Shown in pieces: positions 7,690 to 63,796 of a DNA stretch of 64,000 nt. Source of the DNA: a virus. Taxonomy: Duplodnaviria > Caudoviricetes. How positions within the stretch are numbered: the stretch's first letter is position 1; every line of letters begins with the position of its first letter. The notes beneath the pieces were generated by a model. The model had not been told where the DNA came from and searched no databases. It saw only the letters and a list, made by a program, of their open reading frames with translations. The position numbers and the translations under genes are program-made. The stretch is taken from the IMG/VR virus record IMGVR_UViG_3300006217_000025, positions 1-64,000 of that record. The stretch is one strand, 5' to 3'.

Positions 7690-8316
7690 CTATTGAATGA
7701 TTTTTAAATTTAATTCCTTAAATCTTATTTCTACCGATTTAACAGGAACTTCAAAATAAGTAGATAATTTCAAAATTAAATCATAATTTTTGAAGTTTTT
7801 TGAAAATTCACGATATTTTTTTAGAAAAGCATCTTTAGGCATTAGTAAACAAGCGGCAAAATAACTAGCTCTGTTTTCTTTTATGATTTCTTCTTTTTCG
7901 ACAGGGGGAGTTGACTTAAATGAGGCATTTAAAAATTTGTTATTACTCTCAAGAGAAAAATCATTAAATTCAAACAAATAATGTCCAAGCTCATGAGCAA
8001 TAATAAATCTCTTTTTAAACATATTTTCTTTTTTATTTAATTTAATTATTTTTTTATTCTTGAATTTATCTATATTTTCATCATTAATAGATATAAACCC
8101 TTCTACATTTTCTTCTCTGAACTGACTGCTATAAATTGAAAATCCCATTGCCCTAGCTATTTTTACAACATCAACATAGTCAGCATCTCCAATATAATAA
8201 TTTAAAATCATATTAACAATCTCATCTATTTGATCTCTGTTTTTTTCAACAGTATATTCAGTAATTACATTAAAATCGCTTTTCACAAGTTCCACAATTG
8301 GACACACCCAAATCAC
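7690..8316 (-). CDS. ImmA/IrrE-family metallopeptidase
   Basis: RFIIAHELGHY (HExxH) and ENRASYFAACLLMP motifs. Confidence 0.85.
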   Translation of the reverse strand: MIWVCPIVELVKSDFNVITEYTVEKNRDQIDEIVNMILNYYIGDADYVDVVKIARAMGFSIYSSQFREENVEGFISINDENIDKFKNKKIIKLNKKENMFKKRFIIAHELGHYLFEFNDFSLESNNKFLNASFKSTPPVEKEEIIKENRASYFAACLLMPKDAFLKKYREFSKNFKNYDLILKLSTYFEVPVKSVEIRFKELNLKIIQ

Positions 8317-9750: not shown

Positions 9751-10275
9751 CTACTTATTTATTTTTGATTTCACGGAACTTTCCCACTGACTCCATAATA
9801 CAGATGTCTCTAAGACGCCAAGCAGGGGAGGCCGCTGAATAAAATTATCATTTATCCAAATTCTATTTTCATCTAAATGATGCGGCCCCCATAATTTGTC
9901 ATGATTAACTGGTTTTGTTCCTCTTGCCGGCAAACCAATAATACCTTGATTTAATTGCAAATCAAGTACGTATAAGCTACTATCCATATCTGTTTCATGA
10001 TATTTACTCCATTGAGATGCACTTCCATAAAATAATAAACTTGGGTCTATATATGAAAGAACAGATACTTGAGCTCTATTTTCGCTATATACACGAATAA
10101 TAGGTTTATGTATCGTTGCAGCTATCATACTTTCTCCATTATATTCTCTAAACCAATTTCTAACTATCTGATCTCTAATTTCCTCAGAAGCTTGTTTTCC
10201 TGCTTGTGCATATAATTCAGCAGTTTGTTTCAAAGTGTTTCTTTTGAACTCATTTATTGTATTTTTATCAAACAT
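9751..10275 (-). CDS. Hypothetical tail-region protein
   Basis: ORF track; co-oriented with the tail operon. Confidence 0.6.
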   Translation of the reverse strand: MFDKNTINEFKRNTLKQTAELYAQAGKQASEEIRDQIVRNWFREYNGESMIAATIHKPIIRVYSENRAQVSVLSYIDPSLLFYGSASQWSKYHETDMDSSLYVLDLQLNQGIIGLPARGTKPVNHDKLWGPHHLDENRIWINDNFIQRPPLLGVLETSVLWSQWESSVKSKINK

Positions 10276-10278
10276 ATT

Positions 10279-10635
10279 TTAACCATTATTCGTACTTTTA
10301 ATATGAACTAAATTTTGCAATAATAGGCAATCCTGACCGATTGCTTCTATAATCTTAGAAATCAAATCTAATTCCTGTAACTTATCGTAATTTTCATAAG
10401 TTAATTCAAAATCTTGGATATCAGTATAATACTTTACTATCAGCAAATTAAAGAAAACATATCCAACTAAACCAGAATAACTAGAGAAATCTTTGATGTG
10501 TTCCGAAGTTAAATCTTCTAATTCTTCAATTAATTTCATCTTTTCTTCTATTTTGATGTATTTTTTTATTTTACAATTTCTAGACAATTCAGCTTTAGGC
10601 ATTTTCATCGTTGAAACAAATTCATTTATTTCCAT
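10279..10635 (-). CDS. Hypothetical protein, possible tail assembly chaperone
   Basis: ORF track; similar N-terminus to its neighbour (IKKYIKIEEK vs IKKYIPISAK); position upstream of TMP. Confidence 0.55.
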   Translation of the reverse strand: MEINEFVSTMKMPKAELSRNCKIKKYIKIEEKMKLIEELEDLTSEHIKDFSSYSGLVGYVFFNLLIVKYYTDIQDFELTYENYDKLQELDLISKIIEAIGQDCLLLQNLVHIKSTNNG

Positions 10636-28901: not shown

Positions 28902-28975
28902 TGGTAGCAGCAACAAGAATTGAACTTGTATTATACGATTATTAGTCGCAAGTTTTACCATTAAACTATGCCACT
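28902..28975 (-). tRNA. tRNA-Ile(AAU)
   Basis: Full cloverleaf, 3' CCA; anticodon stem UGCGA/UCGUA, loop CU-AAU-AA. Confidence 0.85.
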
Positions 28976-29162
28976 ATAATAGAAAAGACCTATGTTTCCA
29001 TAAGTCTTCTTCCGCACCGAGTGCCATTTAATTGTAATTGTAATTTAAGAATCTCTTTCTACTCTAGGCAGATAAGCTAAATTTGTGCCAATAAAGATAA
29101 TTAAGAATTTATCTCCATGTTAAAAAATAGAAATATTGTCCATTATATAATGCTAACATTTA

Positions 29163-29248
29163 TGGTGGATGTTCTTAGACTCGCACTAAGGGTGTTTCTT
29201 ACGTCACAGCTTTACAGGCTGCTGCCATCGCTACTAGGCTAAACATCC
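29163..29248 (-). tRNA. tRNA-Tyr(GUA) with atypical T-loop
   Basis: GGAUGUU/AACAUCC acceptor stem, loop CU-GUA-AA, long variable arm, T-loop UGCGAGU, CCA. Confidence 0.85.
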
Positions 29249-29256
29249 ATATTTTT

Positions 29257-29347
29257 TGGCGCACAACTGAGGTGTCGATCCCCAAACGTATCTCTACGTT
29301 CCCACTGTTTTCAAGACAGGTGCTAAGGCCGCTTAGCGTAGTTGTGC
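29257..29347 (-). tRNA. tRNA-Ser(UGA) with 8/4 fold and tRNA-Sec-like D arm
   Basis: 8-bp acceptor GCACAACU/AGUUGUGC, 6-bp D stem GCUAAG/CUUAGC with 4-nt loop CGGC, loop CU-UGA-AA, long V arm, 4-bp T stem, G73, CCA. Confidence 0.75.
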
Positions 29348-29399
29348 ATGGCGTGAATGCTAAAAGTCGAACCGAACATATATGGTGAACAATCATGTT

Positions 29400-29900
29400 A
29401 GTTAAAAACAATAGATTTTCATCTATACATCACTTAGCAGGTGAGTCCTAAGACCTCTTAGGTTTAATGTGCAAGATATATAAGAGGTTTTCGCATTTTT
29501 TTACTCCATAAGTCTGTAATCCTTCGTTCCCGGCTACTCCTTTACAACTCATTATTTCAACATTATGGCTTGTTTAGAGATTAGCTTTTCTCAAATCTTC
29601 TCTTATATTTTTGATATGCCTAGAAAAGTAAGTATACAATGCATTTTTGTTATACCATACCAAACACACAAACGTATATATATAAGTTCTATACACAATA
29701 TATAACTAGCCCCAACACGCTGTTATATCACATCTTCAGTCTGCTGATCAAACAGAATTTACAGTCAATCACACACATATAAAGTTGCACAATATATTTT
29801 ATGATTTCTGCAATAGATGCTTACCAATAGGTCTTACGTATCTACTCAAAAAGTTTTCCATAATATTTTCTATAATTAGATGTAAGTGTTTTATTAGTTC
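29400..29900 (-). ncRNA. Candidate large structured ncRNA inside the tRNA cluster (ROOL/GOLLD-like context); boundaries approximate
   Basis: About 600 nt without a credible ORF between tRNAs; local stems such as AUAGAU-GAAA-AUCUAU, ACCUCUUA/UAAGAGGU and UUGCA/UGCAA. Confidence 0.4.
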
Positions 29901-29986
29901 CAATTAGTTGTATTCGTTTTATTAGCAAGAACAACATTTACATGACTGTAGATATTTTTATGAAAACATTAGTGTTATTTAATTAT

Positions 29987-30063
29987 TGGTTGCTAACGCC
30001 TTGGAGTTGAACCAAGTTTTCAAGGGGTATGAACCCTCGCAAGATACCGACCTTCCGCCAGCT
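29987..30063 (-). tRNA. Atypical tRNA(CAU) with initiator-like features
   Basis: Loop UU-CAU-AC, GGG/CCC at the base of the anticodon stem, 1:72 mismatch, short D loop CGGU, CCA. Confidence 0.6.
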
Positions 30064-30067
30064 ATAT

Positions 30068-30144
30068 TGGTGGACTCTGTAGGATTCGAACCTACAATCT
30101 TTCGGTTATGAGCCGACAGCTTTAACCAACTAAGCTAAGAGTCC
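30068..30144 (-). tRNA. tRNA(CAU), probably Ile2 (lysidine type)
   Basis: Canonical cloverleaf GGACUCU.../AGAGUCC-A-CCA, loop CU-CAU-AA; closely resembles Bacillota tRNA-Ile2. Confidence 0.85.
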
Positions 30145-30160
30145 GAAAGATAACAAAATT

Positions 30161-30244
30161 TGGTGTGGGTAGTAGGATTCGAACCTACACGCCGAAGGCG
30201 CCTGATTCTAAGTCAAGTGTGTCTGCCAGTTTCACCATACCCAC
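30161..30244 (-). tRNA. tRNA-Leu(UAG)
   Basis: Cloverleaf with long V arm, loop CU-UAG-AA, CCA. Confidence 0.9.
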
Positions 30245-30257
30245 AATTTTCATAAGA

Positions 30258-30335
30258 TGGGGGAGAAGAGAGGCCTCGAACCTCTGAAACAGAAAGAAGT
30301 GATTCACAGCTATCTGTTTTACCACCAAGTTAAAT
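30258..30335 (-). pseudogene. Degenerate tRNA (His-like remnant)
   Basis: T arm AGAGG-UUCGAGG-CCUCU and a CCA-like end, CU-GUG-AA loop, but no pairing 5' acceptor strand. Confidence 0.4.
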
Positions 30336-30526
30336 TAGCAGTTGGTTAATGTTAATTTCTTTCTTTTTTTACGATATTGTTTTTCCTTTTGATGTGCCAC
30401 ATATTTTTTTAATAATTTACAATTACCACAATTATTTTTGTTTTTGCAACACCAGCAATAATCTGTATCATCCCAAAACCATTCAGGGGGTTGTGGTTTT
30501 GCTTTTCTACGTTTTTTCTCTGCCAT
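30335..30526 (-). CDS. Small Cys-rich basic protein (63 aa)
   Basis: AGGAG RBS, ATG at 30526; CWCC...CGNC; the track's longer start lies inside tRNA-Pro. Confidence 0.65.
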   Translation of the reverse strand: MAEKKRRKAKPQPPEWFWDDTDYCWCCKNKNNCGNCKLLKKYVAHQKEKQYRKKRKKLTLTNC

Positions 30527-30558
30527 ATTTATTCTCCTAATTTGAAGTAAATATTTAA

Positions 30559-30635
30559 TGGTTGGGAAGACAGGATTCGAACCTGTGACCATCTAGTCCC
30601 AAACCAGATGCACTACCAAACTGTGCTACTTCCCA
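30559..30635 (-). tRNA. tRNA-Pro(UGG)
   Basis: Cloverleaf, loop UU-UGG-GA, CCA. Confidence 0.9.
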
Positions 30636-30640
30636 ATAAA

Positions 30641-30716
30641 TGGCGGGCACTACAGGATTTGAACCTGTGACCTATTGATTAACAGTCAACCGCTCTGCCA
30701 ACTGAGCTAAGCACCC
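30641..30716 (-). tRNA. tRNA-Asn(GUU)
   Basis: Cloverleaf, loop CU-GUU-AA, G73, CCA. Confidence 0.92.
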
Positions 30717-52565: not shown

Positions 52566-52832
52566 ATGAAACAAATAACATATCTTGTTATAGTTGAAGA
52601 AGATAAAAGACAATCAATTTTAAATTCAAAAATGGCACTAATTAGAGATTGGAATATGGGTTGGTTCGAAGTCCCACAAATATTTATTGAAGAATTTAAA
52701 AAAAATTTTGGTATAACTGGATTTGAGTGCGGAGTATGTAGAGAAAATATAACAAAAGAAGAAATCAATTATTTTAACCAAATTAGATGGCATGAAGGAA
52801 GTAATATAATGAATGAATCCGATGAAGAATAA
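52566..52832 (+). CDS. Hypothetical protein
   Basis: ORF track. Confidence 0.65.
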   Translation: MKQITYLVIVEEDKRQSILNSKMALIRDWNMGWFEVPQIFIEEFKKNFGITGFECGVCRENITKEEINYFNQIRWHEGSNIMNESDEE

Positions 52833-52864
52833 TTTGAGGAAATGTTAGAAAATTTACTTCATAA

Positions 52865-53086
52865 AAGAATGTCAATAAATATTTATATGAAGGTGAGTTT
52901 TGCTAGGCTTCATCAGCTTTGGGAACTATAAATGTAGAATCTGATTTACAAGGACTCAATAAATTCATATTAGATGCGATCAGAGCTTGCGATACAGGTA
53001 AATTAAAGATTGGAGGTCTTGATAGTGTGAATGATTTACCTGATAGAACAATTCTTAGAGGAAAGGGGCGAAACGTAAAGAGATAA
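52865..53086 (+). pseudogene. Relic C-terminal fragment of a second reverse transcriptase gene
   Basis: Translates NKYLYEGEFC*ASSALGTINVESDLQGLNKFILDAIRACDTGKLKIGGLDSVNDLPDRTILRGKGRNV, colinear with the intact RT's MKYLYEGERAWAMSCLSCINVESDIAEMNKFIMDCIKACKTGKKRIGGLGVAYNLPDKTIIRGKGKHV. Confidence 0.9.
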
Positions 53087-55718: not shown

Positions 55719-56148
55719 AATGAGTTATAAAGTTGTGTGTACAGGCGATAGTGTTAAATGGTTTGATCACTATCAAGATAGTGTTAATTATGTCAAAAAA
55801 GAGGTAACAAAGGAAGTAATAGAACTATATGAAAATGATGAAATTGATAAATATGGGGTGCAAGATATTTTATTTGACTTATATACATATATATATCATA
55901 CACGAGGATTTATACATCCGAGTTTAAGAAATGAGTACGAGATCGTGGAATATAAAATAAAAGAAGCAAATAACTTAGAGTTTATTGGACAGATTATTGA
56001 TATTTTTGAAGACTTTTTAGAAAAGAGAGGAATTCATATTCACAATGTCGAACAAGACAAAGATGTCGCCCTTATTTATGGAGAAGATTATTTTGAATTA
56101 GAAGATAGCCTGAAAGATATGCTCAAAAATTGGGTGGTTATTGTATAG
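55711..56148 (+). CDS. Hypothetical protein
   Basis: ORF track. Confidence 0.65.
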   Translation: MHKMSYKVVCTGDSVKWFDHYQDSVNYVKKEVTKEVIELYENDEIDKYGVQDILFDLYTYIYHTRGFIHPSLRNEYEIVEYKIKEANNLEFIGQIIDIFEDFLEKRGIHIHNVEQDKDVALIYGEDYFELEDSLKDMLKNWVVIV

Positions 56149-56150
56149 AA

Positions 56151-57428
56151 GTGGATATTTTAATAAAAAAGATGTTTGAATATGAACGTTGGAAAGAGTT
56201 ACTTGAAATTGCTTCTGAAAAAGAGTTAGATAAGGATTTAATTATCAAATTTATGAAACCAGATGAACGAAAGAAATTGGCTTATATTATTGCTTCGGAT
56301 AGTTATACTATTGCTCCCCCACATATCGCTTTTATCCCAAAAGACGATGGCACTATGAGAGAAGTATATGTAAACGAAGATTTAGATAGGATAGTATTAA
56401 CTTTAATAAATAATGTTCTTTGCGAAATTTTTAAAAATAAAATTCATCCTAAATGTGTATCATATCAAAAAGGATTAGGGACACAAATGGTAGTTGAACA
56501 AATTTCAAGAGAAATTACTCAAATGGGTATTGATAATCCTCATATAGAGCGCTGTGGTTATAAAAGTGATTTTTCTAAGTATTTTGATAATGTGTCTTTA
56601 AAAGCTATTGACAGGGTATTTAATGAGTGTGAACGGGGACTAGGTTATGAGTATAATAAGCATCCCGTTTTTAATTTGTTGCGGAGATATTATCATCAGG
56701 ATTTATATTTTAATAAAGATGGGAAATTGGGCAATAGATATCAAGGGCTCAAACAAGGGTGTGCAGTGGCTAGTTTTCTAGCAAATGTCGTTTTGTATGA
56801 ATTAGATGAATTTATGTCAAACAAATATAGGATTTATTATAGATATAGTGATGATTTAGTTGCAATCGACAAAAATACTGATGATGTTATTGATGATATC
56901 AATCGAGTTATTTGTAAATATGGCGTTACATTGAATCCTAAAAAAGTAGAACCAATCTACAAAGATGAATGGTTTAAGTTTTTAGGATTCATGATCAAAG
57001 GTAGCCAAATCACTTTATCTAAAAAACGCATCAAGAATTTTGAAAAGGAAATTAGAAAAAGAAGCGTTGATAAACGAAAATGCTCTGAAAGTAAGGCTAG
57101 ATATCTAATCATGAAGTATTTATATGAAGGCGAACGGGCATGGGCAATGAGTTGTTTGAGTTGTATTAACGTTGAATCTGATATAGCTGAAATGAATAAG
57201 TTTATTATGGATTGCATTAAGGCATGTAAAACCGGAAAGAAAAGAATAGGGGGACTAGGAGTTGCTTATAATCTACCTGATAAAACAATTATAAGAGGCA
57301 AGGGGAAGCATGTTACCTCAAATAAGGTTAACAATGGGTATATTGAAAGATATTTGAGTGTACAGTGTCTTAGAAAAGATTTAAAGTACAATAGAGACTT
57401 ATTCGATATTGTACTTAAAGGACTATAA
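56151..57428 (+). CDS. Stand-alone phage reverse transcriptase (not DGR, intron or classical retron type)
   Basis: IPKDDGTMR (RT1), DRIV (RT2), YKSDFSKYFD (RT3), GLKQGCAVASFLAN (RT4), YYRYSDD (RT5), LNPKK (RT6), FKFLGF (RT7); likely GTG start at 56151 (track start 56130). Confidence 0.93.
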   Translation: MDILIKKMFEYERWKELLEIASEKELDKDLIIKFMKPDERKKLAYIIASDSYTIAPPHIAFIPKDDGTMREVYVNEDLDRIVLTLINNVLCEIFKNKIHPKCVSYQKGLGTQMVVEQISREITQMGIDNPHIERCGYKSDFSKYFDNVSLKAIDRVFNECERGLGYEYNKHPVFNLLRRYYHQDLYFNKDGKLGNRYQGLKQGCAVASFLANVVLYELDEFMSNKYRIYYRYSDDLVAIDKNTDDVIDDINRVICKYGVTLNPKKVEPIYKDEWFKFLGFMIKGSQITLSKKRIKNFEKEIRKRSVDKRKCSESKARYLIMKYLYEGERAWAMSCLSCINVESDIAEMNKFIMDCIKACKTGKKRIGGLGVAYNLPDKTIIRGKGKHVTSNKVNNGYIERYLSVQCLRKDLKYNRDLFDIVLKGL

Positions 57429-57454
57429 GATAAAGAAAAAGTTGAGGTGAAACT

Positions 57455-57703
57455 ATGAAGTTATATTTAATTTTAGTTGGTGGTGATTATATTAGGGATT
57501 CTCAAATTTATACAGGGGAAAACATTGATGGGGACATTTATGATGATGATTCAACATGGAAAGATTTTTGTCCTACTCATGTTGTTGGCGTTGTATATGC
57601 TTCTACATATGAGAATTCAATTAAAAGATTTTTAGAATTATGCAGTGACTATGAAGAGTTTATGCTATCTGCATACGAAATTTCAAATGAGGTAATCTTA
57701 TGA
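57455..57703 (+). CDS. Small acidic hypothetical protein in the RT cassette
   Basis: GAGGTGA RBS; ATGA overlap with the next gene. Confidence 0.7.
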   Translation: MKLYLILVGGDYIRDSQIYTGENIDGDIYDDDSTWKDFCPTHVVGVVYASTYENSIKRFLELCSDYEEFMLSAYEISNEVIL

Positions 57704-58134
57704 CAATTTATGGACGATTGATTGAGGCAGGCCAATGTGGCTTGCCTTTTTATGTGGATTTTAAAAAGAAGAACTTGTTTGTTAACAAAAAATGTTTAAT
57801 TAAACATGGGGTGGTTTTGGAAGATGAAGATATCATGGATGACAAAGACTTGATACAAATTTATGAGAATCCACTTGATTATGTCAAAATTCTATATGAA
57901 AACTTCAAAAATTCTTGGGGAGATAACAGAAGTAAATACTTTATTGCAAAGGACAGTAAAGAAATGTCATTTGAAGCGATTATAGAGGCTTGTAGTGGAA
58001 GTTTAGCTAAAGCTAGACTTGAGGGTTTTGTTTTATTAACTATTCTCACAGGAGAATTTAAGTGGGAATGGGGAAATAAATGGTTCTACCAAGATGATGG
58101 GGGACTTATTTTACTAAAAGAATGGTTTTATTAA
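57700..58134 (+). CDS. Putative RT-associated accessory protein
   Basis: FYVDFKKKNL...LYENFKNS...ARLEGFVL...WGNKWFYQ...LILLKEW; position downstream of the RT. Confidence 0.65.
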   Translation: MTIYGRLIEAGQCGLPFYVDFKKKNLFVNKKCLIKHGVVLEDEDIMDDKDLIQIYENPLDYVKILYENFKNSWGDNRSKYFIAKDSKEMSFEAIIEACSGSLAKARLEGFVLLTILTGEFKWEWGNKWFYQDDGGLILLKEWFY

Positions 58135-58153
58135 AAAAGAGGAGGAAAATATT

Positions 58154-58852
58154 ATGAAAAAGAAAACGGCAGAAAGAATCGTGGAGTTGGTAAAGAATGG
58201 TGTAGATGTCAAAAAATTCAATGCATTAACAGATGAATTGACAATCGGTTTATCCACATCTAGAAATTTATTAAAGGTAAGGGAAGTAGAGATTGATGAG
58301 AGAAAAATTATTACTCTCGATACACCAAATATTGATATCGCAATTAAGACATTGAAAGCATTTAGTTATCAAGGCTATGATGCAGATACAGGAAAACATG
58401 AATTAGGATTTAATAGCTGGCTAAAGAATGAGGTATCATTTGCTAGTTTTATTTTTATGTTTCATAAACTGCATAAATGTGAAAGTCCCAATATTTCCTA
58501 TTTAGCAGAGCAATGCTTAATGAATTTTAAACAAACTTATACAGTGGAGGCATTAAGAAGAATAAAAAAAATCGGGGTAGTAAAATTAGGTAAAATTAAT
58601 CATGCTAATAAGCAAGATGTTGAAACAAGAATTTATGGGATGTTTGAAAGAATATATGAAGGTTATTATACAAGTGGTTTCTTTGAATATAAAAATGAAG
58701 CATGGAGAGATATTTGTAAATTATATTATGGATATTATACATATACATTTTTAAAGGAATATTTTCCGGAAAAACTAAATGGATTAGAAATTGATAGTGA
58801 AGAAGTAGAAGTAGCATATTTCTATATTCAACAATTAGAAAAAATTATCTAA
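58154..58852 (+). CDS. Putative RT-associated accessory protein (232 aa)
   Basis: GAGGAGG RBS; lies between the RT cassette genes and the structured RNA. Confidence 0.65.
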   Translation: MKKKTAERIVELVKNGVDVKKFNALTDELTIGLSTSRNLLKVREVEIDERKIITLDTPNIDIAIKTLKAFSYQGYDADTGKHELGFNSWLKNEVSFASFIFMFHKLHKCESPNISYLAEQCLMNFKQTYTVEALRRIKKIGVVKLGKINHANKQDVETRIYGMFERIYEGYYTSGFFEYKNEAWRDICKLYYGYYTYTFLKEYFPEKLNGLEIDSEEVEVAYFYIQQLEKII

Positions 58853-58876
58853 GTTTTTTTTGCTTTGTGTTGGGCT

Positions 58877-59058
58877 TGAATATAAGGTTTTACAAATGAT
58901 AAGAGGCTCCGCCTCTTATCACACCCTTCTGGATATAAGGAGGATTGTGACCAGAAGACAGCAGGACGACAGGAGTCGCAGCTGCCTCGGGCGGTTCGGA
59001 TTCTTACAGAATCCTCACAATATCTTAAAGAAAAACACCAGGTAAAACATTATATTTA
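58877..59058 (+). ncRNA. Structured ncRNA closed by a terminal inverted repeat; candidate RT template
   Basis: 58877-58893 pairs with 59042-59058 (one mismatch, one G-U); perfect 11-bp hairpin TGATAAGAGGC-TCC-GCCTCTTATCA (58897-58921); further stems at 58927/58951 and 58998-59014; GC content far above the flanks. Confidence 0.75.
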
Positions 59059-59082
59059 TTAAAATTTGAAAGGAGCAAGATT

Positions 59083-59730
59083 ATGGTTAATTCGGTTTCA
59101 GAATTTCGGAAGAGAATAGGGGTACATATTACCACAAGGCATAATGGTAAAATGGAAGGGATGCACTCTTTGAGTACAAGTTGTTTAAAAAACAATTTCT
59201 GTAAAGAACGCTCAAAAAACAAAGCCTCTATTTGCTCACATTGTTACGCTAGTAGGCTATTGAAAATGTATAAAAATACAGAATATTGTTTAAGCAAGAA
59301 CACCGACATTCTAACAAAAAAAGTGCTAATCGAAGAAGAATTACCAATATTAAATGTTTTATACTTTAGATTAGAAGCATTTGGAGATTTAATCAATACA
59401 ATGCAAGTATTGAATTATTTTAACCTATGCAATAAGAATCCTCAAACAAGATTTGCAATTTGGACTAAAAATCCACAGTTAATTGAACAAACTATTCATC
59501 AAGGACACCGAAAACCTCAAAATTTAAATGTGGTTTTGAGTAGTCCTTTTTTAAATAAAGAGATAAAGAATAAATATGATTTTGTTGATGTTATTTTTAC
59601 AGTGTATGACAAAGAAACAATTGACAAAGAGAAAATTTTAATCAATTGTGGTGACAAGAAATGTTTAGAATGTCTGAAATGTTATAAAAAGCATGAAGAC
59701 TTAATTTATATAAATGAAAAAATTAAATAA
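59083..59730 (+). CDS. Gp88-like Cys-cluster protein
   Basis: C-x4-C...CSHCYA, YFRLEAFGDL, FAIWTKNP, NCG..KCLECLKC. Confidence 0.7.
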   Translation: MVNSVSEFRKRIGVHITTRHNGKMEGMHSLSTSCLKNNFCKERSKNKASICSHCYASRLLKMYKNTEYCLSKNTDILTKKVLIEEELPILNVLYFRLEAFGDLINTMQVLNYFNLCNKNPQTRFAIWTKNPQLIEQTIHQGHRKPQNLNVVLSSPFLNKEIKNKYDFVDVIFTVYDKETIDKEKILINCGDKKCLECLKCYKKHEDLIYINEKIK

Positions 59731-59743
59731 AGGAGGGCTAAAT

Positions 59744-60265
59744 ATGAAAAAAACACTTGAACAATTAATTTCAGAGGTTAAACAAGATATGTCAATTGCT
59801 TTGTTGCCATTTGATGATGCAGTTCCTATCGTATTGAACCCTAGGTTAACCCGAGTTTTAGGAAGAGCAAAACATAGAGGAGAAAAAAATATTGTAGTTG
59901 AAATTGCGAAGAATGTCTATGAATTAGCCGATGAACAAACAATTAAAAATGTTATTTGCCATGAATTATTACATACAGCTTTTCCTTTAGACGGGCATTT
60001 AGGACAGTGGAAATTTTATGCGAATAAAGCAAATATCTTAATGCCAAAATATAATATTACGAGATGTAATACAGATAAAGAATTATATAAAAGAAGGCAC
60101 AAATGGTATAAGGTAAAGTGCTTAAAATGTGGAGAAACATGGGAAACACACAACAAGACCTGTGTCAAGTATCCAGAAAGATACTATCATGTAACATGTG
60201 GTGGGAATTTAACAATATTAGATGAGAAGGGAAAACAAAATGACAAACGAGGAAAGAGTAAATAA
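59744..60265 (+). CDS. SprT-like zinc metalloprotease
   Basis: RLTRVLG...VICHELLH...GHLGQWK, C-terminal CxxC...H-x2-C; AAGGAGG RBS. Confidence 0.8.
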   Translation: MKKTLEQLISEVKQDMSIALLPFDDAVPIVLNPRLTRVLGRAKHRGEKNIVVEIAKNVYELADEQTIKNVICHELLHTAFPLDGHLGQWKFYANKANILMPKYNITRCNTDKELYKRRHKWYKVKCLKCGETWETHNKTCVKYPERYYHVTCGGNLTILDEKGKQNDKRGKSK

Positions 60266-60914
60266 ATTTAGAAACGAAAAAATCGCAGTAAACTGCAAAA
60301 CAGAGGAAGAAGCAAAATCATTTATAGAGTGGTGCTATGAAAATGGAATTGAATGGGGGATTCCAGAGTTAGATGAAACACATTCAACTTGCTTTCGTTA
60401 TTATAGGAATGAAACATGTTATGCCTTTGGTTTTGATGGAGACATACACTTGGGATATGGCTCTAAACATTTTCACGAAGAAGAAGGCTATGAAGTCATA
60501 ACATACAAAGACTTCATGAAAGAAAAGAAAATGACTAATTTAGAATATTATGTTTCAAAAGGTTTAATCAACGAAGGTGCTATGTTATGTGTTGGCGCTC
60601 ATATTTGCAAATACGATGGTAAGTGTCATGATAAAGAGTGTTATAAATGCGAATTTAATAATGATGTAAATTTATGTGTTAAAACATTGCTTGAAGAATA
60701 CAAAAAGCCTATCAAATTAACAAGGTTTGAGTTTGATTACCTAGATGTTTTGAGAGAATACAATAATCCAAACGATGAATTTAGTATATATTTCTGTGAT
60801 TGCGTAAAAAAAAGCAAAGGATATTTTAAAGGCATTACAGATACATCTATGACAATTCAAGAAATCTTAGATAATTGTGAAATTGTGGTTGATGATTATG
60901 ATTTTGGAGAGTAA
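60240..60914 (+). CDS. Hypothetical two-module phage protein
   Basis: IAVNCKTEEEAK module plus a C-terminal Cys-rich module. Confidence 0.7.
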   Translation: MTNEERVNKFRNEKIAVNCKTEEEAKSFIEWCYENGIEWGIPELDETHSTCFRYYRNETCYAFGFDGDIHLGYGSKHFHEEEGYEVITYKDFMKEKKMTNLEYYVSKGLINEGAMLCVGAHICKYDGKCHDKECYKCEFNNDVNLCVKTLLEEYKKPIKLTRFEFDYLDVLREYNNPNDEFSIYFCDCVKKSKGYFKGITDTSMTIQEILDNCEIVVDDYDFGE

Positions 60915-63720: not shown

Positions 63721-63796
63721 GGCAGGGTGGAGCAGAAGGAAGCTTATCAGTCTTATTAGCTGAGGGTCGCAGGTTCAAGTCCTGCCCCTGCAACCA
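63721..63796 (+). tRNA. Initiator (fMet)-type tRNA body with UAU anticodon
   Basis: G1.A72 mismatch, G2-C71, C3-G70, A11-U24, A73, T arm GCAGG-UUCAAGU-CCUGC as in Bacillota tRNA-fMet; anticodon loop CU-UAU-UA. Confidence 0.75.

What the first reader, a model, noticed from the sequence alone, without database searches (positions are those of the whole stretch)
56151..59058. Phage RT + three ORFs + IR-closed structured RNA: a retron-like four-gene/ncRNA system
Seen: an intact RT (YSDD, all seven RT motifs) is followed, co-oriented and tightly packed, by ORFs of 82, 144 and 232 aa, then a GC-rich 182-nt element whose ends pair over 17 nt. Established: DGR RTs carry an SQ motif in RT4 and need a TR/VR pair; group II intron RTs sit inside a six-domain intron and usually carry X/En domains; retron RTs have NAxxH and VTG motifs with msr-msd upstream. 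This RT has QG, no NAxxH, no VTG and no visible intron, and the RNA lies downstream of the accessory genes. From recall and unverified, the layout resembles the phage-borne, uncharacterised UG27-type RT cassettes from surveys of unknown-group RTs. Inference: the RT and accessory proteins form an RNP that copies the RNA into a short cDNA, used for anti-defence, phage-phage exclusion or regulation in the early region.
Basis: partly seen in the sequence, partly recalled or inferred. Interest (0 to 1): 0.92.

Follow-up and report, generated by a model that had tools for sequence, protein, structure and literature searches.

The report
Phage UG27 reverse transcriptase, single-RNA variant
A low-GC phage carries the already published UG27 reverse-transcriptase system (enzyme, two helper proteins and a folded RNA that is copied into short DNA), here in a stripped-down, atypical form with one odd RNA unit, so the feature is real but mostly known.

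Summary
There is an intact YSDD reverse transcriptase, three co-oriented ORFs, and a GC-rich 182-nt RNA closed by a 16-bp two-part stem (fold z = -5.2).

The RT is a full-length UG27 (class 2 UG/Abi) enzyme (PADLOC E = 2e-156). The 144-aa ORF is its catalogued small partner (RTas346). The 232-aa ORF is a very diverged, shortened large partner, visible only by profile-profile comparison. The 82-aa ORF is an orphan insertion, not a fourth component.

UG27 systems were catalogued in 2022. A September 2026 preprint showed that they copy the hairpins of ncRNA arrays into 50-100-nt ssDNA, and that all three proteins are needed. This scan has met them in at least 44 other genomes.

Three things are unusual here:
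- There is a single RNA unit, not an array.
- It has a multi-hairpin core and lacks the published AUC-N7-UANAG spacing and the UUYA motif. It is only a borderline match to my covariance model.
- Its centre is a 58-nt hypervariable patch between phages that are otherwise about 99% identical.

The role of the cDNA is unknown for the whole family. I rate this a variant of a known kind, of modest interest.

The parts
56151..57428 (+). UG27-type reverse transcriptase (425 aa from GTG 56151; the longest ORF starts at TTG 56130). The catalytic YSDD is encoded at 56844-56855.
   Evidence: PADLOC RT_UG27 E = 2.2e-156, profile 3-418/420; the next best, RT_UG26, scores 3.5e-33. Pfam RVT_1 full length. 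2178 homologues at E <= 1e-20; apart from near-identical copies the nearest is 63% identical. Start codon as called on L103-L106.
57455..57703 (+). 82-aa orphan ORF, a lineage-specific insertion between the RT and the small accessory gene. It is probably a real gene but not a conserved system component.
   Evidence: It has only near-identical copies in 5.8 billion proteins and no family hit. The region is not structured as RNA, z = +0.34. It has an RBS, and its stop overlaps the next ATG. Relatives carry other ORFs at this position.
57700..58134 (+). Small accessory protein of UG27 systems (sORF; cluster 346 of Mestre et al. 2022).
   Evidence: PADLOC RTas346 E = 1.4e-21, residues 2-143 on profile 2-144/147. 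tblastn finds 28-39% identical homologues next to the RT in related loci.
58154..58852 (+). Very diverged, shortened large accessory protein (bORF-like; cluster 337 position).
   Evidence: phmmer over 1.8 billion representatives finds only itself. A bORF HMM built from 65 loci gives E = 0.037, though this ORF is the best of 464 six-frame pieces of the window. hhalign against 10 close-clade bORFs scores 31.7 against 14.1 +/- 2.7 (maximum 25.2) for 150 shuffles. Three conserved motifs are colinear. Controls L001_351, L001_204 and L025_243 score within their null.
58877..59058 (+). Single atypical UG27-type ncRNA unit, the presumed cDNA template. It has a two-part closing stem and a multi-hairpin core.
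   Evidence: Fold z = -5.24. Covariance model R2, built from 31 units of the closest clade, aligns end to end to exactly 58876-59058: 14.2 bits, E = 1.1 over 10 kb and E = 0.026 within the gap alone. The element stays with the cassette when the downstream genes differ (L124). It is the only such element in the 78-kb record.
58897..58921 (+). Perfect 11-bp hairpin with a 3-nt loop, the first hairpin of the core. The stem is invariant in five near-identical phages.
58930..58987 (+). Hypervariable patch in the core of the RNA.
   Evidence: 15 of the 19 differences between the window and L103 in the 230-nt gap lie here, and 10 of them are transversions. The flanking genes differ far less: bORF 4/699, GP88 1/648, sORF 4/435, RT 11/1299. 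It is the fourth most divergent 60-nt window in 10 kb; the three above it all lie in 60.4-60.8 kb. The predicted local pairing is not conserved.
59020..59040 (+). 3' conserved motif block: AUAUC (59020-59024), one U, then UAAAG followed by the A-rich CNCCA stretch (59026-59040).
   Evidence: The 15-nt pattern TANAGNAANNCNCCA is taken from invariant columns of the post-bORF unit of canonical loci. It occurs once in the 64-kb window, here, with 0.09 expected. The exact published pattern ATC-N7-TANAG is absent from the element.

Best explanation
This is a phage-borne UG27 system (class 2 UG/Abi reverse transcriptase). It consists of the RT, its small accessory protein, a strongly diverged and shortened large accessory protein, and one atypical structured RNA unit just downstream, all read on the + strand as part of the phage's replication-module operon.

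The mechanism is inferred by analogy with the five UG27 systems tested in the 2026 preprint. The three proteins would bind the RNA scaffold (the two-part basal stem plus the UAAAG-CNCCA block). The RT would start near the AUC at 59022-59024 and copy the core (about 58894-59024) into a minus-sense ssDNA of roughly 130 nt that folds into hairpins.

What is shown here: family membership of the RT and sORF, a profile-level relation of the 232-aa protein to bORF, the RNA's stability, its physical linkage to the cassette, and its hypervariable core.

What is inferred: that this unit is transcribed, that it is used as a template, and where the cDNA ends lie.

The 82-aa ORF is lineage-specific cargo. 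What the cDNA does is unknown for the whole family.
For: - RT: PADLOC RT_UG27 E = 2.2e-156, full length. sORF: RTas346 E = 1.4e-21.
- The 232-aa protein scores 31.7 against a bORF profile versus 14.1 +/- 2.7 for shuffles (0 of 150 as high), with colinear motifs. Three unrelated proteins from bORF-slot or neighbouring positions score within their null.
- Related loci with RT 59-63% identity have the same order, RT - (gap or cargo) - sORF - bORF - gap, with ncRNA units in both gaps.
- Their units share a two-part basal stem, a UUUA block, a central hairpin, AUAUY-N7-UANAG and RAAUG. The stems covary: 73% of cells paired versus 53% shuffled, covariation 0.489 versus 0.171, 0 of 500 shuffles as high.
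- Model R2 aligns the window element end to end at its exact borders. E = 0.026 when only the gap is searched.
- The motif TANAGNAANNCNCCA is unique in the window and sits in the expected place.
- In L124 the RNA stays with bORF while everything 6 nt past its 3' end is different DNA.
Against: - The RNA does not reach significance with my covariance models in a regional search: 10.7 bits with R1, and 14.2 bits (E = 1.1) with R2, inside a list of chance hits.
- The published start motif AUC-N7-UANAG is absent. Either the 7-nt spacer is reduced to 1 nt, or the AUC is replaced by CAC.
- The UUYA stop motif is missing at its usual place. The model deletes those positions.
- The core is 120 nt of several hairpins rather than one hairpin of about 69 nt.
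- The large accessory protein lacks the conserved FRRW..AQTF block and about 60 C-terminal residues.
- There is no expression or cDNA data.
- The motif was chosen after I had seen the resemblance.
Confidence: 0.75

Rival explanations
1. Decaying cassette. The proteins are of UG27 descent, but the RNA is a degenerate leftover unit that no longer templates cDNA, and the system is inactive or doing something else.
For: - Both published boundary motifs are defective and the model match is not significant.
- The bORF is short and highly diverged.
- There is a single unit, whereas relatives have 3-8.
- A dead fragment of a second UG27 RT lies 3 kb upstream, at 52799-53080, with 6 stops.
Against: - The RT, sORF and bORF reading frames are intact in six independent contigs (five of them with the complete cassette; L124 holds only the end of the sORF, the bORF and the RNA). 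Changes are mostly synonymous in the RT (8-9 synonymous to 3-4 non-synonymous) and the sORF (4:0 and 8:4-5).
- The RNA scaffold is unchanged in all of them while the core varies.
- The element is far more stable than chance.
- A second phage (L001) has an element of the same unusual build.
Confidence: 0.15
2. The structured RNA is not part of the RT system. It would be a leader or regulator of the downstream GP88 gene, or an independent phage sRNA.
For: - An outer helix (58858-58866 with 59072-59080) would bury the GP88 ribosome-binding site.
- No promoter or terminator separates the element from GP88.
- A GP88 homologue is often near UG27 loci.
Against: - In L124 the identical element follows bORF but is followed by unrelated genes on the opposite strand, and the outer helix is lost.
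- Relatives have UG27 units in the same post-bORF position.
- The family motif and the end-to-end model alignment point to a UG27 unit.
Confidence: 0.05
3. The RT belongs to a retron, a diversity-generating retroelement or a group II intron.
For: The RT shows generic similarity to these enzymes: TIGR04416 95.5 bits, retron St85 47.9 bits.
Against: - Both scores are far below the curated cut-offs of 300 and 235 bits.
- UG27 scores 519 bits against at most 113 for any other RT model.
- No intron or retron RNA family is found in Rfam.
- There is no second copy of the RNA core in the 78-kb genome, so no template/variable repeat pair.
Confidence: 0.01

Closest known systems
UG27 systems of phages (class 2 UG/Abi RTs): Mestre et al. 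2022, NAR 50:6084 (PMC9226505); ncRNA arrays and cDNA in bioRxiv 10.64898/2026.09.22.753630 (2026)
   Same: - RT clade and YSDD active site.
- Small accessory protein (cluster 346) and a distant large accessory protein.
- Phage location in an early/replication module.
- A structured RNA next to the genes, with a two-part basal stem and the UANAG block.
- Sequence-variable core on a conserved scaffold.
   Different: - One unit instead of an array (the preprint's totals give about 5.8 units per locus).
- The unit lies after bORF only.
- The core is about 120 nt of several hairpins instead of one hairpin.
- AUC-N7-UANAG spacing and UUYA are not kept.
- The bORF is 232 aa against 251-382 aa in relatives and is not found by HMM.
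- An orphan 82-aa gene sits in the RT-sORF gap where arrays usually lie.
UG27 locus of IMGVR_UViG_3300011006_000010 (L001/L127; 118-kb phage, RT 44% identical)
   Same: At about 10091-10238 it has an element of the same unusual build: a two-part closing stem, three side-by-side hairpins, then UCACA - short spacer - UAAAG - NAANACACCA - 3' stem. It also lacks a standard large accessory gene.
   Different: That phage also has a unit with the exact canonical motif (at 8129). Its multi-hairpin element lies 3.8 kb from the RT, behind four other ORFs. Its slot protein shows no relation to bORF, whereas the window's does.
Retrons (msr-msd RNA + RT + effector)
   Same: An RT copies part of an adjacent structured RNA, closed by an inverted repeat, into a short ssDNA. 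Accessory proteins are needed.
   Different: - The RT clade differs; retron models score below 50 bits.
- The RNA lies downstream of the genes.
- There is no evidence of a 2'-5' branched msDNA.
- The system is carried by a phage rather than serving as host defence.
DRT2 / DRT9 (UG2, UG28; other class 2 UG/Abi RTs with ncRNA templates)
   Same: The same RT class, with a neighbouring structured ncRNA used as template.
   Different: Per the preprint, those make long or concatemeric cDNA, while UG27 makes short hairpin ssDNA. Here PADLOC Drt2 and Drt9 score only 48-77 bits.

Membership tests
UG27 system (class 2 UG/Abi RT) | RT falls in the UG27 group | tested here: met
   PADLOC RT_UG27 519 bits, E = 2.2e-156, profile 3-418/420. 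The next model, RT_UG26, scores 113 bits.
UG27 system (class 2 UG/Abi RT) | Catalytic YSDD motif intact | tested here: met
   YSDD is encoded at 56844-56855. Y239, D241 and D242 are invariant and S240 nearly so in 21 homologues.
UG27 system (class 2 UG/Abi RT) | Small accessory protein (cluster 346 / sORF) adjacent | tested here: met
   PADLOC RTas346 E = 1.4e-21, full length.
UG27 system (class 2 UG/Abi RT) | Large accessory protein (cluster 337 / bORF) adjacent | tested here: inconclusive
   A bORF HMM from 65 loci gives only E = 0.037. phmmer finds no relative. hhalign scores 31.7 against shuffles at 14.1 +/- 2.7, 0 of 150 as high, probability 27%. Controls lie within their null.
UG27 system (class 2 UG/Abi RT) | ncRNA unit with AUC-N7-UANAG on the 3' side and UUYA on the 5' side of the central hairpin | tested here: not met
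   The exact pattern is absent from the element, although it marks 5-8 units per canonical locus. UAAAG is present, with AUC 1 nt before it instead of 7. The model deletes the UUUA positions.
UG27 system (class 2 UG/Abi RT) | Tandem array of several units | tested here: not met
   There is only one candidate unit. No other match to R1 or R2 is found in the window or in the whole 78-kb record.
UG27 system (class 2 UG/Abi RT) | Unit matches a covariance model of UG27 units | tested here: inconclusive
   My model R2 (31 units of the nearest clade) gives 14.2 bits: E = 1.1 in 10 kb and E = 0.026 in the gap alone, end to end at the element's borders. The preprint's own models were not available.
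UG27 system (class 2 UG/Abi RT) | Carried by a phage | tested here: met
   The record is a 78,346-bp virus contig. Neighbours are GP88 and SprT-like genes and a weak, sub-threshold match to lambda-P replication protein; tRNA genes lie elsewhere in the window.
UG27 system (class 2 UG/Abi RT) | RT-, sORF- and bORF-dependent short ssDNA copied from the unit | not testable with these tools
   This needs expression and strand-specific DNA sequencing.
Retron | Retron-clade RT with msr-msd RNA | tested here: not met
   NCBIfam retron_St85_RT scores 47.9 bits against a cut-off of 235. The PADLOC retron RT model scores 34.9 bits. No retron RNA family is found in Rfam.
Group II intron | Intron-encoded RT/maturase inside a six-domain intron RNA | tested here: not met
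   TIGR04416 scores 95.5 bits against a cut-off of 300. No group II intron RNA match appears, even at E <= 10.
Diversity-generating retroelement | Template repeat with a near-identical variable repeat in a target gene | tested here: not met
   The RNA core has no second copy in the 78-kb genome. The differences between phages are not adenine-specific.

The most novel reading that the evidence does not exclude
The window element and the one in the 118-kb phage L001 may define a separate class of UG27-associated RNA. Its features would be several short hairpins on one scaffold, UCACA - short spacer - UAAAG - NAANACACCA in place of AUC-N7-UANAG, no UUYA, and pairing with non-standard large accessory proteins. 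It would then have different cDNA start and stop rules. Its payload would turn over fast (26% divergence in 58 nt between phages about 99% identical elsewhere), as expected if the cDNA sequence is under arms-race selection or is renewed by the RT itself.
Probability: 0.15. Interest if true: 0.6.

Novelty: new variant of a known kind. Interest (0 to 1): 0.33.

Why it matters
UG27 is one of the few reverse-transcriptase systems carried by phages rather than by their hosts. Its biochemical output (short hairpin ssDNA) is known, but its purpose is not.

A natural one-unit locus with a compact large accessory protein would be a convenient minimal model for three questions: which RNA features the enzyme needs, where cDNA synthesis starts and stops when the canonical motifs are altered, and what the product does.

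The localized hypervariability of the template core between near-identical phages is a small piece of evidence that the cDNA sequence itself is the evolving, functional part.

Otherwise this is one more instance of a published family that this scan has already met in at least 44 genomes.

Tried and rejected
- **Complex prediction** (RT alignment + sORF alignment + 232-aa protein): no verdict, score 0.00, and the partner's fold was uncertain. Not used as evidence.
- **AlphaFold2 of the 232-aa protein with the bORF alignment:** mean pLDDT 60, pTM 0.51. Foldseek against BFVD found nothing at E <= 0.001.
L103 loses the loop sequence. L105 changes both predicted partners to a G-G mismatch. Not supported.
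- **Wider search for the RNA.** A 20-nt exact scan of IMG/VR found nothing. A 23-nt scan of JGI metagenomes gave two chance hits inside marine coding sequence. A gapped pattern scan of IMG/VR found only the L001 phage plus four hits without an RT.
- **INPHARED phages,** blastn of the cassette: no match.
- **Second UG27 partner set next to the RT relic:** the ORFs at 52-55.7 kb have no PADLOC DRT hits.
- **The 82-aa region as a hidden RNA unit:** fold z = +0.34 and no model match.
- **Promoter and terminator scan:** counts equal to shuffles.
- **Relation of the 232-aa protein to L001's 351-aa or 204-aa ORFs:** none.
Full report

- ORF 56130-57428 (+) is the RT. Near-identical contigs call it from GTG 56151, giving 425 aa. 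It matches Pfam RVT_1 over the whole model and encodes YSDD at 56844-56855.
- It is followed on the same strand by ORFs of 82, 144 and 232 aa, separated by 26, -4 and 19 nt.
- The next 230 nt are non-coding and contain the element 58877-59058. Its ends form a 9 + 7 bp two-part stem.
- This gap folds to -69.2 kcal/mol, against -48.6 +/- 3.9 for shuffles (z = -5.2). The opposite strand folds as well, so folding alone does not give the strand.
- G+C rises to 0.42-0.47 in a 0.29 background. Rfam has no match.

**What the proteins are.**

- The RT is a full-length member of the UG27 group of class 2 UG/Abi reverse transcriptases: PADLOC RT_UG27 E = 2.2e-156, with the next model at 3.5e-33.
- Group II intron and retron models stay far below their curated cut-offs.
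- The 144-aa ORF is the catalogued UG27 partner RTas346, E = 1.4e-21.
- The RT has 2178 homologues at E <= 1e-20. Apart from near-identical copies (99%), the nearest is 63% identical, so this lineage is rather isolated within the family.

**What is known about the family.**

- Mestre et al. 2022 (PMC9226505) defined UG27, found it mostly in gut phages together with clusters 346 and 337, and predicted a structured RNA.
- A preprint of September 2026 (bioRxiv 10.64898/2026.09.22.753630) describes three conserved proteins (RT, sORF, bORF) and a variable array of roughly 150-nt RNA units.
[quoted passage not shown] Synthesis starts at the AUC of AUC-N7-UANAG and ends after a UUYA motif.
- YSDD>YSAA or deletion of either accessory gene abolishes the product. 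The role of the cDNA is stated to be unknown.
- I could reproduce the array signature in fetched loci. Canonical IMG/VR loci (RT about 41% identical) carry 5-8 exact motif copies spaced 155-185 nt between the RT and the sORF, plus one after the bORF.

**The 232-aa protein.**

- Sequence searches see nothing: phmmer over 1.8 billion representatives returns only itself.
- An HMM I built from 65 bORFs of fetched loci gives only E = 0.037, although this ORF is the best of all 464 six-frame pieces of the window.
- Profile-profile comparison with ten bORFs of the nearest clades scores 31.7. 150 shuffles gave 14.1 +/- 2.7 (maximum 25.2), and the reversed sequence gave 16.9.
- Three family motifs line up in order: an N-terminal ER..L...GVD..K[FY] block, a G[WF][DN]..L[KR] block, and an AW[KR]D...K...YYT block.
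- Three other proteins from the bORF slot or nearby in odd loci (L001 351 aa and 204 aa, L025 243 aa) score within their own null, so the test is specific.
- I read the protein as a strongly diverged bORF that has lost the FRRW..AQTF block and about 60 C-terminal residues. Membership stays 'inconclusive' by strict standards.

**The 82-aa ORF.**

- It has no homologue beyond near-identical copies and no family hit.
- The region does not fold better than chance (z = +0.34), so it is not a hidden RNA unit.
- Loci with RT 59-63% identity carry other, unrelated ORFs between the RT and the sORF: 86 + 97 aa, 252 aa, four ORFs, 54 aa.
- It is therefore lineage-specific cargo, not a fourth component.

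**The RNA: what the closest relatives look like.**

- In the closest clade, units lie both in the RT-sORF gap and after the bORF.
- Each unit has a two-part basal stem, a UUUA block, one central hairpin, AUAUY-N7-UANAG and then RAAUG.
- On 30 distinct units these stems covary: 73% of cells paired against 53% shuffled, covariation 0.489 against 0.171, 0 of 500 shuffles as high. Slid controls give 0.12-0.18.

**The RNA: how the window element compares.**

- Covariance models from these units (R1, R2) recover further units in relatives down to E = 1e-16.
- They score the window element at only 10.7 and 14.2 bits.
- The R2 alignment is nevertheless end to end at exactly 58876-59058. It pairs both parts of the basal stem, aligns the UAAAG block, deletes the UUUA positions and puts 120 nt where the family has about 69.
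- E is 1.1 over 10 kb and 0.026 if only the gap is searched.
- The published motif is not present as such. Either AUC (59022-59024) is followed by a 1-nt spacer instead of 7, or the 7-nt spacer is kept and AUC is replaced by CAC. The two alignments favour the second reading, and sequence comparison with the AUAUY block favours the first.

**The RNA: further links to the family.**

- The post-bORF unit of canonical loci is unusually conserved. Its invariant columns give the pattern TANAGNAANNCNCCA. That pattern occurs once in the 64-kb window, at 59026-59040, in the right place relative to the stem, with 0.09 expected. In 1.17 Mb of UG27 loci it occurs 67 times on the RT strand and 6 times on the other. 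I chose this pattern after seeing the resemblance, so it is supportive, not decisive.
- In contig L124 the bORF and the RNA are identical to the window, but homology ends 6 nt after the RNA's 3' end and unrelated genes follow on the other strand. The RNA therefore belongs to the RT cassette, not to the downstream GP88 gene.
- No other unit exists in the 78-kb record, and the core has no second copy there, so there is no DGR-type repeat pair.

**Variation of the RNA.**

- Four independent contigs carry this cassette at about 97% overall identity.
- Against L103, the RT, sORF, bORF and GP88 differ at 11/1299, 4/435, 4/699 and 1/648 positions. The 230-nt gap differs at 19.
- 15 of those 19 lie in 58930-58987, and 10 of them are transversions, with no base-specific bias.
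- The basal stem, the first hairpin's stem, the last hairpin and the 3' motif block are unchanged.
- It is the fourth most divergent 60-nt window in 10 kb; the three above it all lie in 60.4-60.8 kb, in a downstream gene.
- The predicted local pairing in the patch is not conserved, and the proposed pseudoknot is not kept.
- This picture, a constant scaffold with a fast-changing payload, fits the preprint's description of units that are structurally conserved but sequence-diverse. Recombination with a diverged allele would explain it as well as any special mechanism.

**A second example of the odd build.**

- The 118-kb phage behind L001 (RT 44% identical) has, 3.8 kb downstream of its RT, an element with the same architecture. 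It has a two-part closing stem, three hairpins side by side, then UCACA, a short spacer, UAAAG and the CNCCA stretch before the 3' stem.
- That phage also lacks a recognisable bORF. An earlier report of this scan made the same point.
- An IMG/VR pattern scan found no further case.
- Two cases are too few to define a class, but they argue against simple decay.

**Mechanism and confidence.**

- Shown here: family membership of the RT and sORF, a distant bORF relation, a stable RNA physically linked to the cassette, and a hypervariable core.
- Inferred from the published experiments on other members: the three proteins bind the scaffold and copy the core into a minus-sense ssDNA, here about 130 nt, which folds into hairpins under DNA parameters (-28 kcal/mol).
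- Not known: whether this unit is active despite its altered boundary motifs, and what the cDNA does.
- My estimates are 0.75 for an active UG27 variant, 0.15 for a decaying cassette, 0.05 for an RNA unrelated to the RT, and about 0.01 for retron, DGR or intron.

**Novelty.** The system is published, and this scan has reported it in at least 44 other genomes. The locus deserves the label 'variant' for four reasons: the single unit, the multi-hairpin core without the canonical motif spacing, the shortened large accessory protein, and the orphan insertion. Interest is modest.

Noticed in passing
window 52799-53080 (+): Dead fragment of a second, different UG27 RT. It is 48% identical to residues 302-396 of the intact RT, has six stop codons, and by eye looks closer to the clade consensus than to the phage's own RT. 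No UG27 partner genes or RNA units lie next to it.
   Followed up: partly
L036-L102, about 10200-10600 in each locus (post-bORF unit): In canonical UG27 loci the single unit after the bORF is conserved in sequence across loci, even at the base of its central hairpin, unlike the diverse units of the main array. Its invariant 3' block is TANAGNAANNCNCCA. It may be a functionally distinct 'terminal' unit.
   Followed up: partly
L001 10091-10238 (IMGVR_UViG_3300011006_000010): A multi-hairpin element of the same build as the window RNA, in a phage that also has a canonical unit (motif at 8129) and no recognisable bORF.
   Followed up: partly
window 59083-59730 and most fetched UG27 loci: A GP88-family gene (PF17338, cysteine-rich, function unknown) lies within about 1-5 kb of the UG27 RT in phages whose RTs are only 40-60% identical. 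This could be conserved replication-module synteny or a functional link.
   Followed up: no
window 58858-58866 with 59072-59080: An outer 9-bp helix around the RNA would sequester the ribosome-binding site of the GP88 gene. It is not kept in L124, where the downstream DNA differs.
   Followed up: partly
window 60222-60914: The gene with a weak lambda-P-like match is a mosaic hot spot: 25-35 differences per 60 nt against otherwise about 97-99% identical relatives (L103, L105).
   Followed up: no
window 28902-30716 (-) and 63721-63796 (+): A cluster of eight tRNA genes on the minus strand, and a separate tRNA with anticodon UAU on the plus strand near the late genes.
   Followed up: no
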